Source: Escherichia coli O157:H7
GTDB lineage: Bacteria; Pseudomonadota; Gammaproteobacteria; Enterobacterales; Enterobacteriaceae
Assembly (NCBI RefSeq): GCF_013167455.1
Contig: NZ_CP038328.1
Direction: 5' to 3' (one strand)
Length of the DNA stretch: 64,000 nt
Shown here: positions 3,001-9,000 of the stretch, piece by piece
Numbering within the stretch: the stretch's first letter is position 1
Layout: each line of letters starts with the position of its first letter
Position numbers: made by a program

Positions 3001-6000
3001 TGGTACTCGAAGCGCTGTGCATGGCGATTATTCCGTTCTTTGTGAATCGGGTAGGGCCAAAAAATGCATTACTTATCGGTGTTGTGATTATGGCGTTGCG
3101 TATCCTTTCCTGCGCGCTGTTCGTTAACCCCTGGATTATTTCATTAGTGAAGCTGTTACATGCCATTGAGGTTCCACTTTGTGTCATATCCGTCTTCAAA
3201 TACAGCGTGGCAAACTTTGATAAGCGCCTGTCGTCGACGATCTTTCTGATTGGTTTTCAAATTGCCAGTTCGCTTGGGATTGTGCTGCTTTCAACGCCGA
3301 CTGGGATACTCTTTGACCACGCAGGCTACCAGACAGTTTTCTTCGCAATTTCGGGTATTGTCTGCCTGATGTTGCTATTTGGCATTTTCTTCCTGAGTAA
3401 AAAACGCGAGCAAATAGTTATGGAAACGCCTGTACCTTCAGCAATATAGACGTAAACTTTTTCCGGTTGTTGTCGATATCTCCATATCCTTCAACCGGAA
3501 AATAATAATACTAAAATGCTTAGCCCTGCTAATAATCGCCTAATCCAAACACCTCATTCATGTTCTGGTACAGTCGCTCAAATGTACTCCGGATACACGG
3601 TTCGCTGATTTCCAGGACATTGTCGTCATTCTGCGACCTGTCCCGTGTATCACGGGCCTGCGAATTCATCAAGGAATGCATTGCGGAGTGAAGTATCGAG
3701 TCACGCCGTATTTCGCTATCAGGATTCTGTGTGATGGTTACATCGCCCGGCCCTGGGCTGTTTAGTCATCAGCGCTTTCTGACAGTGCTGAGATTTCAAC
3801 CTGTTGCAGTAAAAATGAGTAGATATAGGGCAAGTGTGCTGCCAAACCCATCGTTTACGGGATGAAGGTAGATTTGGTTTGAAGGGTATCTGGTGTCCCT
3901 GCAGGAATCGAAAAATTAGCTAACAATTTGAATTGTAGTTTATTTCTCTTTCGATTTTGGTGAGTGCCCCAATAGGTGCCCCCAAGCGTTGTGATCAGAA
4001 ATGCTGGTTTTTACCTGATGAAACAAGCCTGACGACCTTTCAAATTTTATTCTGATTTTACGATCAATAGCTCGTTTTTTATCCGGTAGTAAGTCGCTCG
4101 GCTGATTCCTGCTGCCTTCATGATGAGTTCAGGTTTTACTCCTTGCTCCAACATCTCTCTAACGATCTCTCGGGCTTCCTGATTTTTCGCCCTCCCAATG
4201 TATATGCCTTCGCTTTTAGCTCGTTCAATGCCTTGCTGTTGGCGTTTACGGCGTGTTTCGTAATCCTGCCGTGCCATTGTGGCAAGGATATCAATCAACA
4301 TGGCATTTACGGCTCTCAGGATGCCGCTGGTTAGATCATTGCCTGCCATCTCGACCATCTGCCAGCTCGTTGGTAAATCCATTGATACGATGATTAACCC
4401 TTTTCGGTTGAGCGTATCTTTCAGTTCGACCCATGCACTATGTTCTAGGCGACTCAGACGATCTATAGCTTCCACTAGCAACAGATCGCCGGACTGGGCT
4501 TCAGACAATAGCCGCATAAGCTCTACGCGCTCAAGCTTCGCCCCGCTAGCATTTTCTATATACTCTCCTGCAATCTGCCAGCCTTTTGATTTTGAAAATT
4601 CACGTAGGCTGGTAAGTGCTCGATCAGCGTGTTGCCCCTCAGTTGATGCTCGGCAGTAAATTCTAACGTTCATTGCATTGTCTCAAAAGGGTTGTGAATA
4701 TAAGTGCAAATGATACATAATGCAGTTTGTGTAGTCAAAATGTTCCTATACAACCCTATTGAGACTTTGTATCACCTTGTCATTACGGTATACCCAATTG
4801 AGACAATGATAACGGCTGGTGTTTAAGGTGATATATTGAGCTAGCCGAAAGAAACAGCCCGACACCGTTTTTACCGTATGAGATAATTTGTTGTGCTGGT
4901 GGGGTTGCTTGCCAGTACTTGGAATGGTACAAATCTGTACCATTGTTCGACGGTCTATTAACAAGGAGTGTTAAGATGGAAAAAGACCTGAAAGAGTTGC
5001 GGGAATACCTATTACTTTCCCCCGTCTATTCTGAAATTAACGATTGTCTGGCTAGTCTCTCAATGGAAGACGTGACCAATGAAGAGTTCGCGGAACGTTT
5101 GGGAATTGCTCCTGATTGGATGGATGCTATAGATACTAGCCAACTTGCTTAAGAAAGGATGCGCCATTGCTGGGCGCGTTTCTCATTTCTCCCGTAGCAC
5201 TACGCATACCTTCTAATAAATTTCACCATCAAAATCAGTAGATTGATAAAATGTCACTCAAATCTGTCATAAGTATCACAATTTTTAAACCTAATTGAAA
5301 TATAATGTTATTAGATATTATCTAATGGAGGTAGTTTAATGTCTTATGCGTTGATTGATAATGCTTCGTTAACAGCAGTCGAAAGAACACTGGGTGATAT
5401 TCTTGTTAAGAATCCAGATACTATTAACGGAGATTTAGTCGCTTTTGAAAATCTTATTCAAGCGATACTTTTTTACGATACCCTGATCTGTGTAGATAAT
5501 TATAAAAAAGAATATAGAGATAAACGCATTGCTAAATTTGACTTTATTAAATTTGTATCTGAAAGTGATTTTCAACTCAGTGAACTTGATCAGTTAGCAC
5601 AAGTTGAATCTCGGCAAATTACTTCCGAAATTAGAGGTGGGGAGTTTGTTGACGATGATTTTAGGCAACTTGTAGAGATGCTTAAGCTGAATATGATTTG
5701 CACATGGGATCTTCGGTCTAGCGTGTATTACTTAACAATGAAAATGCTTGGTCAGCCCGGTACTCCTGAATATGCGAAATATAGTGAACTAAGTGCATCG
5801 ATTTTTAATGAATTATCAGATGCTTCTGATACGAAAGGGTACTGGTCAACCGATGTGAAGCTAGTGAGTTCATCTGGACATGAATATACTGAGCGTGAAT
5901 TTGAACTAGAAAGGGAAAAATCTACTCGCGGTAAAGGAGGTATGACTCGTTCACTTGAAATGTTTATCGCATCGCTAAATTGGTTGGCATATAAATCTAT

Positions 6001-9000
6001 TTATTACAGCGTCATTGCTAAGCATTTTAAAGCAGACTCATTTATTCATCCAATAAGGCATGCATATCAATTGCATTGGATGAAAAAAACAGGTGCTTTT
6101 GGTCATGATTATACTGCAAGGTTGGTGCAATCGTTGTCTGATAAAATCAGTACTGCAAGATCTGAAATTGTAGATCATGGACGCACATCTACTATTTCAT
6201 TAGATTTACCAATATTTTCTGCATGGCTAGCAAACGAAACAGGAAATGTCTCTCAAGTTATCAATTCAGCTTTAGAGCTTAGAACACATGATCATTTTCG
6301 TACGTGTCGAGATGTAATCCGAGAGATTCATGTGACCTACGATGAATCGGGGATAAGTGCAGGAAATAAAAAAGTAACAAAATTACTAAGTGATTTAGAT
6401 AAAATATCTGGAGATATTAAACGAAGCTACGGTGTTCCATCAAATCAAGGTATTCAAGGCAGTTTTTTGATAAAATGTATAAATTCATTGACAGGACTCG
6501 TGGGTATTCCAGGTTTGCCTGATAAAGAGTTTGCACTGAGCACTCCTGAATTTATGAAGTCTAAACAACATAAAGCATTTTCTACCGTTTTCAAGGATGT
6601 TACTAACGAACTAACAAGCATTGAACGTTTAGGTGGGCTTCGGGATAAATTAGCGTCGAACTTTACTATTGATGATTCTTATTATACCGAGCCAAAAACA
6701 GAGGATCCGAGATTCCGTTACGTAAGTAGTAATTGGAAGCAGCCAATGTAGATATAGTTAAATGTATAATTATAAGTAATAACAATTTACAGACATTATT
6801 GAATTAAAAATATTGCGTTAGGGTATAATATCTAACGCAATTAGATTGAAAAGTTAATTAAATAGTTAGTCAGAGCTAACTTCTTGTATTGTTAGTTACA
6901 CTGCCTAACCTACAGACAAAAAGCCCCTCAGAATTGTGCTTACGCGCTCAAATTTCACTGCTGGGGATTTTTACGTACATTCAACCCAAAAAGTGACCAA
7001 AAAAGTTCTTACAGAGTTGACGTTACGTTGACGTTGTTTTCTGAAAATGATCCCTTGGTGACTTATTTTATGTATTTGATTTTACGTTTTTTCTTTAATG
7101 TTTTATCACTTTAAACTAACGTCAACTTATCCTTATAGAGCGATTAATTTCTATAAGTACTTTTTCTCAAAATTTGATTTTTACGGATGGAAGTCCATCA
7201 AAGAAACGTCATTTTTTTCTAAGACTTTGATCTTTCGTTAACGGTGTTAGTGGGGACTTCGGTCGTCGAGCGCGATGCGCTTCTGACCGTTTCAATGGAT
7301 AGGTTCGCCTTCTTGCGCCTCTCGCGGCGTTTGCCGCGCTCCGCGCTTTTGGCGGTTTGGCAGGCATATCTCTCTTATTATTGGTCGTTTTTTGCACCGC
7401 CTTGTCACGATCTGTCACTACTAGTAGTAATGGTCATAACCTCCGCTTTCTCTTTTGGCTCTGGATGCTCTCACTCGTGCTCTTCTTAACATCCTTAACA
7501 GTGGGTGGGTTTGTACTTTGTTCGAGTTTATTATCTGTGAGGATAGTAATTCCCTGCGCTCTGTCTCTGCCTCTTTGGTGACCGCTATCACTGATAAATC
7601 CCAATCGTGTTTGCTAATTAACGGTGCTTGGAACGGGGTGATTGGTGATCGATTTATGTCTTGTCGTTTCAATGTACGCTGTATCTGTCGCTTAGCTTTG
7701 TAGTTGTCTTTCCTTGATGCCTGAACGGCTTTTAGTATGCGTCTTACAGCATGAAAGCCAGTGATAGAAAGTGTTTCTTTTTTTATCTCATGCCGCGCCC
7801 AGCCATTCGAATAACCCCAAACGTTGGCATCTGACCAATCATATAGGCTCTTGCTCGCCTCTCTATTAAAGTCATTTAACTTAGTTTCGGGCTTTGCCAT
7901 GTAATCAATCTGTTTACCTATACACTTTGTAGGCTCTGAATATTGCTGACCTTTCAAATCTAGATCCCACTGGGGAGGAACATTTGATGGGATTGCATTG
8001 TTTGCCAGTGTTACCCATTTGCTGACAATTTTGCCAGCTTGCCCATTAATGCTTCTTTCGTTCACCATGATTATTGCGTGTACATGCGGCTCTGACTGGT
8101 GTTGAGCCCACTCCATGACGTAAACCCACTGATTGCCTTGAATGAAAGCGATATTGCATCGCTTGATACCAGAGTTCAGTCGCTGGAATCGCAGGTTTCA
8201 GACCATGAAACGCGCATTAATGCTCTGGAGTATGCCACTACGCGCAAGAAGTCAGAGGTTGTTTACTCTGGCGTATCAGTAACCATCCCGACAGCGCCGA
8301 CCAACCTTGTTAGCCTGCTGAAAACGCTTACGCCGTCATCCGGGACGTTGGCACCATTCTTCGACACCGTTAACAACAAGATGGTTGTGTTCAACGAGAA
8401 CAAAACCTTGTTCTTCAAGCTGTCGATTGTCGGGACGTGGCCCAGCGGAACCGCCAACAGGTCAATGCAGCTAACATTCTCCGGTTCTGTTCCTGACACG
8501 CTAGTAAGCAGTCGCAACTCGGCAACAACAACCGACAACATCCTGTTAGCTACGTTCTTCAGCGTGGATAAAGACGGCTTTCTTGCCACAAATGGCAGCA
8601 CGTTAACCATTCAGTCGAATGGCGCGGCGTTTACTGCCACAACCATCAAAATCATTGCGGAGCAGTGATGGAAATAAAGCTCATCGATAACCCGGTGAAA
8701 CTTGCAGAATTCCTTAACAACCCGGTAAACACGGGGAATATCGTAGACAGTGGAGATAAATACTACATCAAGCCTGATGCGGTATATCTCGGCATCTACG
8801 AAGGATTAGTGCTGGCTGGAGTTCATGAAGTGCGTAACTTCTGGCATAGCGTTGTTGAATGCCATGCGGTGTATGACCCCGGATTCCGTGGCGAATATGC
8901 ACTACAAGGGCATCGATTATTCTGCAAATGGCTTCTCGAAAACTCACCATTCCTTAACAGCATCACCATGGTTCCTGACACCACCAAATACGGACGGGCA

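What the first reader, a model, noticed from the sequence alone, without database searches (positions are those of the whole stretch)
4047..6751. AT-rich orphan 470-aa ORF with small partner ORF and resolvase/res-like site: candidate undescribed accessory (defence?) module
ORF 5339-6751 sits in a block (roughly 5160-7200) that is visibly much more AT-rich than the surrounding DNA and has a strong GGAGG RBS. I cannot recognise any motif in its 470 residues (no Walker A, HTH, PD-(D/E)xK, HEPN-like Rx4-6H or Sir2 signature). It is preceded on the same strand by a 58-aa acidic ORF (4976-5152, RBS AAGGAG) and flanked by a divergent small serine recombinase (4047-4673, YCRASTEGQ) whose upstream region holds three copies of a TGTCTCAA core in alternating orientation, resembling a res site. 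A foreign-composition cargo gene beside a recombinase inside a tRNA-linked prophage remnant is where anti-phage or other fitness determinants usually sit. Function is entirely inferred.
Basis: partly seen in the sequence, partly recalled or inferred. Interest (0 to 1): 0.72.

Follow-up and report, generated by a model that had tools for sequence, protein, structure and literature searches.

The report
Orphan cargo gene in defence hotspot
The 470-residue orphan gene of E. coli O157:H7 (ECs3238) is a real, strongly conserved, self-contained mobile gene that fills a swappable cargo slot where other strains carry a SIR2 defence gene and that travels as an integron cassette in other bacteria, so it is a good but untested candidate for a new one-protein anti-phage defence.

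Summary
ORFs, ribosome-binding sites, the serine recombinase and the AT-rich block (34.5% GC against 48.6%) are all there. The window is E. coli O157:H7 Sp16 at argW, and the ORF is ECs3238.

The proposed three-part module does not hold. The recombinase and the 58-aa ORF are a fixed framework found in 549 of 5426 complete E. coli genomes. Between that framework and a rolling-circle Rep gene lies a slot (~5184-6913) whose content changes:
- the 470-aa gene in 315 genomes;
- an 826-aa SIR2 protein in another strain;
- an unknown 821+330-aa pair in others.

The 470-aa gene works alone. No partner is conserved across 32 loci. It is a single-gene integron cassette in Vibrio, Stutzerimonas, Nitrosomonas and Alteromonas. 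It is under purifying selection (dN/dS 0.07-0.10) and stays at 36-39% GC in the four hosts measured.

Neighbours are often defence genes (AbiGi, SoFic, PDC-S06, a restriction nuclease, mad2). The family matches nothing in Pfam, NCBIfam, PADLOC or PDB sequences.

The parts
3891..3912 (.). Distal copy of the argW tRNA 3' end (TGGTGTCCCTGCAGGAATCGAA). It marks the outer boundary of the argW island / Sp16.
   Evidence: The sequence matches the tRNA-Arg 3' end at 12442 onward. Homology with genomes that lack the csc genes starts at 3891. The position agrees with the Sakai Sp16 annotation.
4047..4673 (-). Small serine recombinase (208 aa, ECs3240). It belongs to the conserved island framework, not to the cargo.
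   Evidence: PHROG 125 DNA invertase 8e-41; NCBIfam Mpi-invertase, IS607 and resolvase models all score below their cut-offs. It is present in 549 of 5426 E. coli genomes whatever the cargo.
4676..4808 (.). Three copies of a 16-17-nt motif (4676-4695; 4750-4765 and 4792-4808 in inverse orientation). They enclose a promoter-like site on the minus strand. Probable recombinase-binding or operator sites.
   Evidence: No inverted version of the enclosed segment was found in 547 genomes.
4976..5152 (+). 58-aa acidic ORF (ECs3239, phrog_35119). Conserved framework gene, not a partner specific to the 470-aa gene.
   Evidence: It is 72-98% identical over its full length in loci that carry SIR2, the 821+330-aa pair, or IS1 cargo.
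5157..5181 (+). Terminator-like hairpin that closes the 58-aa gene, just before the cargo boundary.
   Evidence: boundary.
5184..6913 (+). Variable cargo slot. In O157:H7 it is filled by the AT-rich (34.5% GC) 470-aa gene with its own leader and tail.
   Evidence: Homology to E. coli loci with other cargo stops at 5180-5218 and resumes at 6880-6914. GC.
5339..6751 (+). 470-aa ORF (ECs3238, WP_000119352). Founding E. coli member of an uncharacterised family of ~466-475 aa proteins. The N-terminal ~140 residues form a PIN-like alpha/beta domain with invariant D7, R16, G19 and D32, and E37 at 95%.
6812..6841 (+). Perfect 10-bp-stem hairpin (ATTGCGTTAG N10 CTAACGCAAT) downstream of the gene. It travels with the gene (shared with Dickeya solani).
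6914..7420 (.). Conserved non-coding framework region with GTTGACGTT iterons (7016-7035, inverse copy near 7119). Probably the origin for the rolling-circle Rep.
   Evidence: About 87-89% identical in genomes with other cargo by megablast, and 93-95% by blastn together with the adjoining Rep gene. Repeats.
7421..8116 (-). Truncated rolling-circle Rep gene (ECs3236). It keeps only the C-terminal ~215 of 350 residues, so the HUH/REP_ORF2-G2P part is missing.
   Evidence: phrog_30534 matches residues 136-350 of the full-length Rep of strain TF5. Pfam REP_ORF2-G2P lies at residues 85-143 of the full protein. Homology with intact islands ends at 8139, where the P22-like remnant begins.

Best explanation
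The 470-aa ORF is an autonomous, horizontally mobile, single-gene cargo. In E. coli O157:H7 it sits in the exchangeable cargo slot of a decayed small integrative island at argW.

The intact island reads: P4-type integrase, AlpA-like regulator, rolling-circle Rep, slot, 58-aa ORF, serine recombinase. In O157:H7 its integrase half has been replaced by a P22-like prophage remnant.

The most likely function is a one-protein defence against phages or other invading DNA. In this reading the N-terminal PIN-like alpha/beta domain, with its invariant acidic cluster (D7, D32, E37, plus D47/D53/D54), acts as a metal-dependent nuclease or phosphoesterase effector. The large, mostly helical C-terminal part (residues ~140-470) would sense infection or hold the effector in check.

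What is shown: the gene is real, conserved, mobile and solitary, and it occupies a variable slot that also holds a SIR2 gene.
What is inferred: the defence role (from location and neighbours) and the nuclease mechanism (from a weak fold resemblance).
For: Real and selected:
- dN/dS is 0.10 against Dickeya and 0.07 against Vibrio.
- 233 homologues were found, the closest clade 55-85% identical across Gamma- and Betaproteobacteria.
- 278 clusters at the 50% level, nearly all full length at 450-480 aa.
- The transcript is detected and induced 11.8-fold in spinach root exudate in Sakai (PMC4940412).

Foreign origin: 36-39% GC in all four hosts measured, E. coli, Dickeya, V. vulnificus and Stutzerimonas.

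Slot:
- The framework is in 549 of 5426 E. coli genomes, and the 470-aa cargo in 315.
- Other fillings of the slot are an 826-aa SIR2 protein (PADLOC ThsA 2e-12, Dsr1 1e-4), an 821+330-aa unknown pair, or IS1 plus other genes.
- The intact island with this cargo is seen in E. coli strain 4.

Solitary and mobile:
- It is flanked by attC repeats in V. vulnificus.
- It lies next to an IntI-like gene, with an attC right after the stop codon, in Stutzerimonas.
- It has cassette structure in Nitrosomonas and Alteromonas.
- The closest AFDB match is 'ORF467' of S. stutzeri.
- No partner is conserved in 32 loci.

Defence neighbourhood:
- Of 30 adjacent proteins tested, 5 match PADLOC models strongly: SoFic 1e-41, PDC-S06 2e-262, AbiGi 4e-42, a type II nicking endonuclease 5e-30 and mad2 3e-22. 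Seven more match at E of 1e-5 or better.
- In Salmonella the gene lies between a CP4-57-like island and AbiGi, BrxD-like and TerB genes.
- In P. fluorescens it lies among AbiTii and PIN_8 genes.

Structure:
- The AlphaFold2 model has pLDDT 81.5 and pTM 0.85.
- The secondary-structure order is that of a PIN domain (my reading), with D7 at the end of strand 1 in an 'LIDN' motif and E37 in helix 2.
Against: - There is no experimental phenotype.
- PADLOC gives no match even to its candidate systems.
- The third and fourth acidic residues expected in a PIN site are not conserved. D124 varies, and positions 104-107 vary.
- Foldseek against the PDB finds nothing. Its weak top hits are HAD-type phosphatases, so the chemistry could be different.
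- Some contexts are not defence-like: the ars operon in Dickeya and recBCD in Aeromonas.
- Integron cassettes and island slots also carry non-defence genes.
- The neighbour test used 30 proteins that I picked by position, with no matched control.
Confidence: 0.5

Rival explanations
1. The recombinase with its res-like site, the 58-aa acidic ORF and the 470-aa ORF work together, for example as a toxin-antidote pair or a two-gene defence system mobilised by the recombinase.
For: The genes are adjacent, and the two ORFs are on the same strand, each with a good ribosome-binding site. The 16-17-nt repeats next to the recombinase are real.
Against: - The recombinase, the repeats and the 58-aa ORF are conserved with entirely different cargo.
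- A terminator-like hairpin and the cargo boundary lie between the two ORFs.
- The 470-aa gene is a one-gene cassette elsewhere.
- No small upstream ORF is shared with it: alignment identity is 14-23%, and no family recurs across 32 loci.
Confidence: 0.05
2. A mobile accessory enzyme or stress-adaptation protein unrelated to phages. One example would be a phosphatase or nucleotide-handling enzyme with a Rossmann-like, HAD-like or HUP-like N-terminal domain, carried in cassettes like many other adaptive genes.
For: - The top Foldseek PDB hits, though not significant, are YrbI/KdsC HAD phosphatases.
- Some contexts are not defence-like.
- The gene is induced by plant root exudate.
- Most integron cassettes have unknown, varied functions (Darracq et al., bioRxiv 10.1101/2024.07.02.601686).
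Against: - The slot is shared with a SIR2 defence-type gene.
- Defence genes recur as neighbours in unrelated hosts.
- No metabolic partner genes or operon context were seen.
- The HAD signature DxD is absent, since position 9 is A or S.
Confidence: 0.25
3. A gene that serves the mobile elements themselves: addiction or stabilisation of arrays and islands, exclusion of competing elements, or counter-defence.
For: It is always found on or next to mobile DNA such as integrons, islands and plasmids. Integrons are known to hold stabilising toxin systems.
Against: There is no antidote-like partner. It is absent from 50,697 phage records. It is not part of the conserved island backbone, since it is replaceable.
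Confidence: 0.15
4. A decaying relic with no function in O157:H7.
For: The surrounding island is a remnant, with a truncated Rep and no integrase of its own.
Against: - The ORF is intact and at least 99% identical in some 315 genomes.
- The family shows strong purifying selection.
- The transcript is regulated.
Confidence: 0.03

Closest known systems
Cargo hotspots for anti-phage systems in integrative mobile elements (as described for P2 prophages and P4-like satellites; from my own knowledge of Rousset et al. 2022, not read here)
   Same: Conserved flanking genes enclose a slot whose content differs between strains and includes a recognised defence-type gene (SIR2). The slot DNA is AT-rich, and the element is tRNA-integrated.
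   Different: The backbone differs: a P4-type integrase, an AlpA-like gene, a rolling-circle HUH Rep and a terminal small serine recombinase, with no P4 or PICI hallmark genes seen. I did not find this island type or this slot described in the papers searched.
Integron cassettes that encode single-gene phage defence (Darracq et al. 10.1101/2024.07.02.601686; Kieffer et al. 10.1101/2024.07.02.601719; 10.64898/2026.03.17.712381)
   Same: Homologues are one-gene cassettes with an attC right after the stop codon, in the chromosomal integrons of Vibrio, Stutzerimonas, Nitrosomonas and Alteromonas. They go undetected by defence-prediction models, as most of the published cassette systems did.
   Different: At ~1.6 kb it is longer than most of the other cassettes in the V. 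vulnificus array examined (repeat spacings mostly 0.5-1.6 kb). None of the named cassette systems in the two papers read for their systems has its features. The E. coli copy is not in an integron and has no attC.
PIN-domain (VapC-like) nucleases
Zorya ZorC (EH-signature protein)
   Same: One AFDB relative at TM 0.57 is named 'ZorC EH domain-containing protein'. Overall size is comparable.

Membership tests
Known or candidate anti-phage defence families (PADLOC-DB v2.0.0) | Significant match to a family HMM | tested here: not met
   0 families at E up to 1 for the 470-aa and 58-aa proteins.
Defence/cargo hotspot of a mobile element | Conserved flanks with different gene content between strains, including recognised defence genes | tested here: met
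   The framework is in 549 genomes. Cargo is the 470-aa gene, SIR2 (ThsA/Dsr1-like), an 821+330-aa pair, or IS1 plus others. Breakpoints lie at 5180-5218 and 6880-6914.
Integron gene cassette | A single ORF bounded by attC sites within an array next to intI | tested here: not met
   Not met for the window copy: there is no attC or intI, and it lies in an island slot. Met for homologues in V. vulnificus (array repeats at 7849-7971 and 9429-9551), Stutzerimonas (IntI-like gene plus attC), Nitrosomonas and Alteromonas.
PIN-domain nucleases | Three-layer alpha/beta/alpha fold with a five-stranded parallel sheet | tested here: inconclusive
PIN-domain nucleases | Four conserved acidic residues forming the metal site | tested here: inconclusive
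   D7 (100%) and E37 (95%) fit the first two positions. No conserved acid is found at the expected third and fourth positions, while D32, D47, D53 and D54 are conserved instead. The geometry was not inspected.
PIN-domain nucleases | Match to a Pfam PIN family model | tested here: not met
   No PIN hit for the query or for any of 60 family members.
Zorya ZorC / EH_Signature | HMM match, conserved Glu/His signature, and linkage to zorAB | tested here: not met
   No PADLOC ZorC hit. The invariant residues of the C-terminal half are P238, R240, P291 and R324, with no E/H pair. No ZorAB-like neighbours were seen.
Type II toxin-antitoxin pair | A conserved adjacent small partner gene that co-varies with the large gene | tested here: not met
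   The 58-aa ORF is kept with other cargo. No neighbour family occurs in more than 4 of 32 loci.
Small serine recombinases (resolvase/invertase) | N-terminal catalytic domain with the active-site Ser motif, plus a C-terminal helix-turn-helix | tested here: met
   YCRASTEGQ motif with Ser10. PHROG 125 at 8e-41 over residues 1-202. HTH-type hits at residues 149-201. All NCBIfam equivalog scores are below cut-off, so the subfamily is undefined.
Tn3-type res site | Three subsites, each an inverted pair of ~12-bp half-sites with short spacers | tested here: not met
   Three single 16-17-nt copies lie 54 and 26 nt apart, in orientation + - -. None forms a close inverted pair.
Invertible promoter switch (Hin/Mpi type) | Both orientations of the segment between the inverted repeats seen in populations or genomes | tested here: not met
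   Queries with the segment flipped found no full-length high-identity match in 547 genomes. The best were 90% and 86%, which corresponds to the unflipped form. Low-frequency inversion cannot be excluded from assemblies.

The most novel reading that the evidence does not exclude
ECs3238 founds an undescribed family of one-protein anti-phage (or anti-plasmid) immunity factors. It would use a divergent PIN-like metal-dependent domain joined to a new helical sensor. It spreads as an integron cassette and as island cargo across Proteobacteria and beyond, and it is fixed in the O157:H7/O55:H7 lineage. In addition, the argW island slot (recombinase and 58-aa ORF on one side, Rep origin on the other) would be a previously unlisted defence hotspot, and its 821+330-aa cargo would be a second new system.
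Probability: 0.4. Interest if true: 0.7.

Novelty: new variant of a known kind. Interest (0 to 1): 0.55.

Why it matters
The O157:H7/O55:H7 genomes in the collection of complete E. coli genomes carry this gene, some 315 of them, yet it has been annotated 'hypothetical' since the Sakai genome was first annotated as such.

If it is a defence protein, three things follow:
- It adds a compact (1.4 kb) single-gene system with a new architecture.
- It helps explain phage resistance in a major food-borne pathogen, which bears on phage biocontrol.
- It gives a worked example of the same gene moving between integron arrays and island hotspots.

The slot itself offers further untested candidates. Even if the function turns out to be something else, the family is broad, tightly conserved and entirely uncharacterised. 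That makes it a clean target for a simple cloning and plaque-assay experiment.

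Tried and rejected
1. Small-partner idea. The small ORFs upstream of homologues (a DUF6979 ORF in Dickeya, a 67-aa ORF in Stutzerimonas) do not align with the 58-aa ORF (14-23% identity). The Stutzerimonas one is a separate cassette.

2. Phage gene. The three PHROG matches (13435, 35119, 30534) have profile lengths equal or nearly equal to the O157 proteins. 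I infer that they derive from this prophage annotation. tblastn against 50,697 phage records found nothing.

3. ZorC relationship, suggested by one AFDB name. Rejected; see the membership test.

4. Invertible promoter between the inverted repeats. A promoter-like TTGACT-17-TATCAT lies inside the segment. No flipped form was found in 547 genomes.

5. attC remnant in the window. GTTAG/CTAAC words at 6812-6913 are in the wrong order for an attC. The hairpin at 6812-6841 is shared only with Dickeya.

6. Comparison with a neighbouring PIN_8 protein by hhalign gave a probability of 0.2%. This is uninformative.

7. Rfam search of 3400-8300 found nothing.

8. Profile search of PDB sequences found nothing below E 0.4.

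9. Literature. The only mention of ECs3238 is a microarray table. Nothing was found for ORF467 or for an argW defence hotspot. EcCIMP1 is a different island.

10. The search for related loci with the broad alignment failed for lack of conserved stretches. It was repeated with a closer set.

Full report
**What is there.**
The window is an E. coli O157:H7-type chromosome. The sucrose genes cscK and cscB (1216-3449) are followed by the argW-linked element annotated in strain Sakai as 'prophage Sp16, P22-like'. The finding's ORFs exist as described:
- a serine recombinase at 4047-4673 (-), ECs3240;
- a 58-aa acidic ORF at 4976-5152, ECs3239;
- a 470-aa ORF at 5339-6751, ECs3238, with GGAGG just upstream.

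GC falls to 0.30-0.39 between about 5200 and 7200, against 0.44-0.52 around it. The gene is 36.2% GC and the window 48.6%. The 470-aa protein has no significant match in Pfam, NCBIfam or PADLOC. Its only hit is a PHROG of unknown function whose profile length nearly equals the protein's, and it is absent from 50,697 phage records.

**The 'res-like' site.**
The exact 8-mer occurs twice in the intergenic region, with a third, one-mismatch copy. The orientation is + - -, and the 8-mer count in the window is at chance level. The real feature is a 16-17-nt repeat in three copies at 4676-4695, 4750-4765 and 4792-4808. These copies do not form the paired half-sites of a Tn3-type res site. A promoter-like site lies between the inverted copies. 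I therefore tested for an invertible switch, but no flipped form exists among 547 E. coli genomes.

**The module is not a module.**
The recombinase plus 58-aa block occurs in 549 of 5426 complete E. coli genomes, always on the chromosome. In every locus examined it lies by argW, next to the csc or dsd genes or another prophage. The 470-aa gene occurs in 315 of them, in the O157:H7/O55:H7 lineage and in at least one unrelated strain. In the other genomes the same framework continues up to window 5180-5218 and resumes at 6880-6914. In between lie quite different genes:
- an 826-aa SIR2 protein that matches PADLOC ThsA and Dsr1 models, in strain 357900;
- an 821+330-aa pair with no match in any library, in strains 7/2 and TF5;
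- IS1 plus other genes, in TUM9754.

The 58-aa protein stays 72-98% identical over its full length whatever follows it. A terminator-like hairpin (5157-5181) closes it before the boundary. So the recombinase, the repeats and the small ORF are a fixed framework, and the 470-aa gene is one of several interchangeable cargos.

**The host element.**
E. coli strain 4 shows the intact element. In order it reads: argW, a 428-aa P4-type integrase, a 240-aa ORF, an AlpA-like regulator and small ORFs, a rolling-circle Rep, a conserved non-coding stretch, the 470-aa gene, the 58-aa ORF, the recombinase, and then cscB. The full-length Rep (350 aa, strain TF5) carries a REP_ORF2-G2P domain. The non-coding stretch carries GTTGACGTT iterons.

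A copy of the argW 3' end at 3891-3912 marks the outer boundary. In O157:H7 homology to the island stops at 8139, inside Rep. Only the C-terminal 215 residues of Rep remain, and a P22-like remnant (needle, gp14/7/20-like genes, intS) follows. The cargo is therefore stranded in an immobile remnant.

**The gene is autonomous and mobile.**
- 233 homologues were found, and the closest clade is 55-85% identical.
- 278 clusters at 50% identity were found in 1.84 billion representatives, almost all 450-480 aa with no extra domains. The family also reaches Clostridium and Verrucomicrobia.
- dN/dS is 0.10 against Dickeya and 0.07 against V. vulnificus.
- The gene is 36-39% GC in the four hosts measured.

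In V. vulnificus it sits between two array repeats of the chromosomal integron, 1580 bp apart. In Stutzerimonas it lies close to a divergent 320-aa IntI-like recombinase, separated from it by one small cassette, with an attC right after its stop codon. Nitrosomonas and Alteromonas copies have the same cassette structure. The closest AFDB entry is 'ORF467' of S. stutzeri. Dickeya shares with E. coli a slightly larger unit: 41 bp upstream and 103 bp downstream, including the hairpin at 6812-6841. Clustering all predicted neighbours in 32 loci found no family present in more than four loci, so there is no obligate partner.

**Why defence is the leading reading.**
- The E. coli slot also holds a SIR2 protein.
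- In Salmonella the gene lies between a CP4-57-like island and AbiGi, BrxD-like, TerB and helicase genes.
- In P. fluorescens it lies among AbiTii and PIN_8 genes.
- A distant member follows a methyltransferase and an Mrr-type nuclease.
- Of 30 adjacent proteins from about 20 loci, five match PADLOC models strongly (SoFic, PDC-S06, AbiGi, a type II nicking endonuclease, mad2). Seven more match at E of 1e-5 or better.
- Integron cassettes are now known to be rich in small defence systems that prediction tools miss.

This is association, not proof. The neighbour sample was hand-picked and had no control, and some contexts are neutral, such as the ars operon in Dickeya and recBCD in Aeromonas.

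**Structure and mechanism.**

The first ~140 residues have the strand and helix order of a PIN domain, by my reading of the model's secondary structure. An invariant Asp ends strand 1 (LIDN), followed by invariant R16, G19 and D32, E37 at 95%, and well-conserved D47, D53 and D54. The later PIN acidic positions are not conserved, and no PIN HMM matches any member.

I therefore propose, at perhaps 0.3 confidence, a divergent metal-dependent nuclease or phosphoesterase head. It would be controlled by the large, mostly helical remainder, which has invariant P238, R240, P291 and R324. One AFDB relative named 'ZorC EH domain-containing' prompted a ZorC test. That test failed on HMM match, on motif and on gene context.

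**Verdict.**
It is now better grounded by the hotspot, the cassette mobility, the purifying selection and the defence-rich neighbourhoods. The proposed linkage to the small ORF and the recombinase is wrong. The gene is transcribed in Sakai and responds to conditions (PMC4940412). Its function remains untested, and a plaque-assay experiment would settle it.

Noticed in passing
L010:2263-5717 and L014:8320-11786 (same slot as window 5184-6913): In E. coli strains 7/2 and TF5 the slot holds an overlapping 821-aa + 330-aa gene pair. It has no match in PADLOC, NCBIfam, PHROGs or Pfam, and is a second uncharacterised candidate system in the same hotspot.
   Followed up: partly
L011:3354-5834: In strain 357900 the slot holds an 826-aa SIR2-family protein (PADLOC ThsA SIR2 2e-12, Dsr1 1e-4) with a long unassigned C-terminal part.
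   Followed up: partly
window 7016-7035 and 7119-7127: GTTGACGTT occurs twice in tandem and once inverted, in the conserved non-coding stretch upstream of the rolling-circle Rep gene. This is probably the island's replication origin.
   Followed up: no
window 4976-5152: The conserved 58-aa framework protein is very acidic (14 Asp/Glu against 4 Lys/Arg, my count) and always sits beside the serine recombinase. It could be a recombination directionality factor or a DNA-mimic-type protein. No library match beyond its own PHROG.
   Followed up: partly
window 9812-10948 (AT-rich from ~10400; GC 0.28-0.34): The ORF annotated as a DNA ejection/injection protein looks chimeric. It has a P22 gp20-like N-terminal half, fused to an AT-rich hydrophobic C-terminal half that resembles an O-antigen acyltransferase remnant, next to intS.
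   Followed up: no
L018-L020:8001-9356 (Aeromonas hydrophila): Here the family member lies about 100 bp downstream of recD, directly after the recC-recB-recD operon on the same strand. It recurs in many assemblies (19 similar places).
   Followed up: no
L034:2460-2483, L040:9977-10000, L043:9977-10000: Copies outside integrons (Burkholderiales, Chromobacterium) keep the same leader, 'AACCACAGG(G/A)', that follows the cassette boundary GTTAT|AAC in the Nitrosomonas integron copy. This hints that they derive from a cassette.
   Followed up: no
window 3529-3681 (-): A 50-aa fragment annotated as a DUF4942 domain protein lies between cscB and the island boundary. It looks like a leftover of yet another element.
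   Followed up: no
H1 / H95, E. coli strain MA11 (NZ_CP040314.1): An IS3-family element (IS1203) interrupts the framework near window ~5013, inside the 58-aa ORF, in an otherwise identical locus.
   Followed up: no
H56-H58, Pseudomonas aeruginosa ~500-kb plasmids: Family members on large plasmids match only residues 132-470 in one piece, with a second place nearby. This suggests a disrupted or split copy.
   Followed up: no
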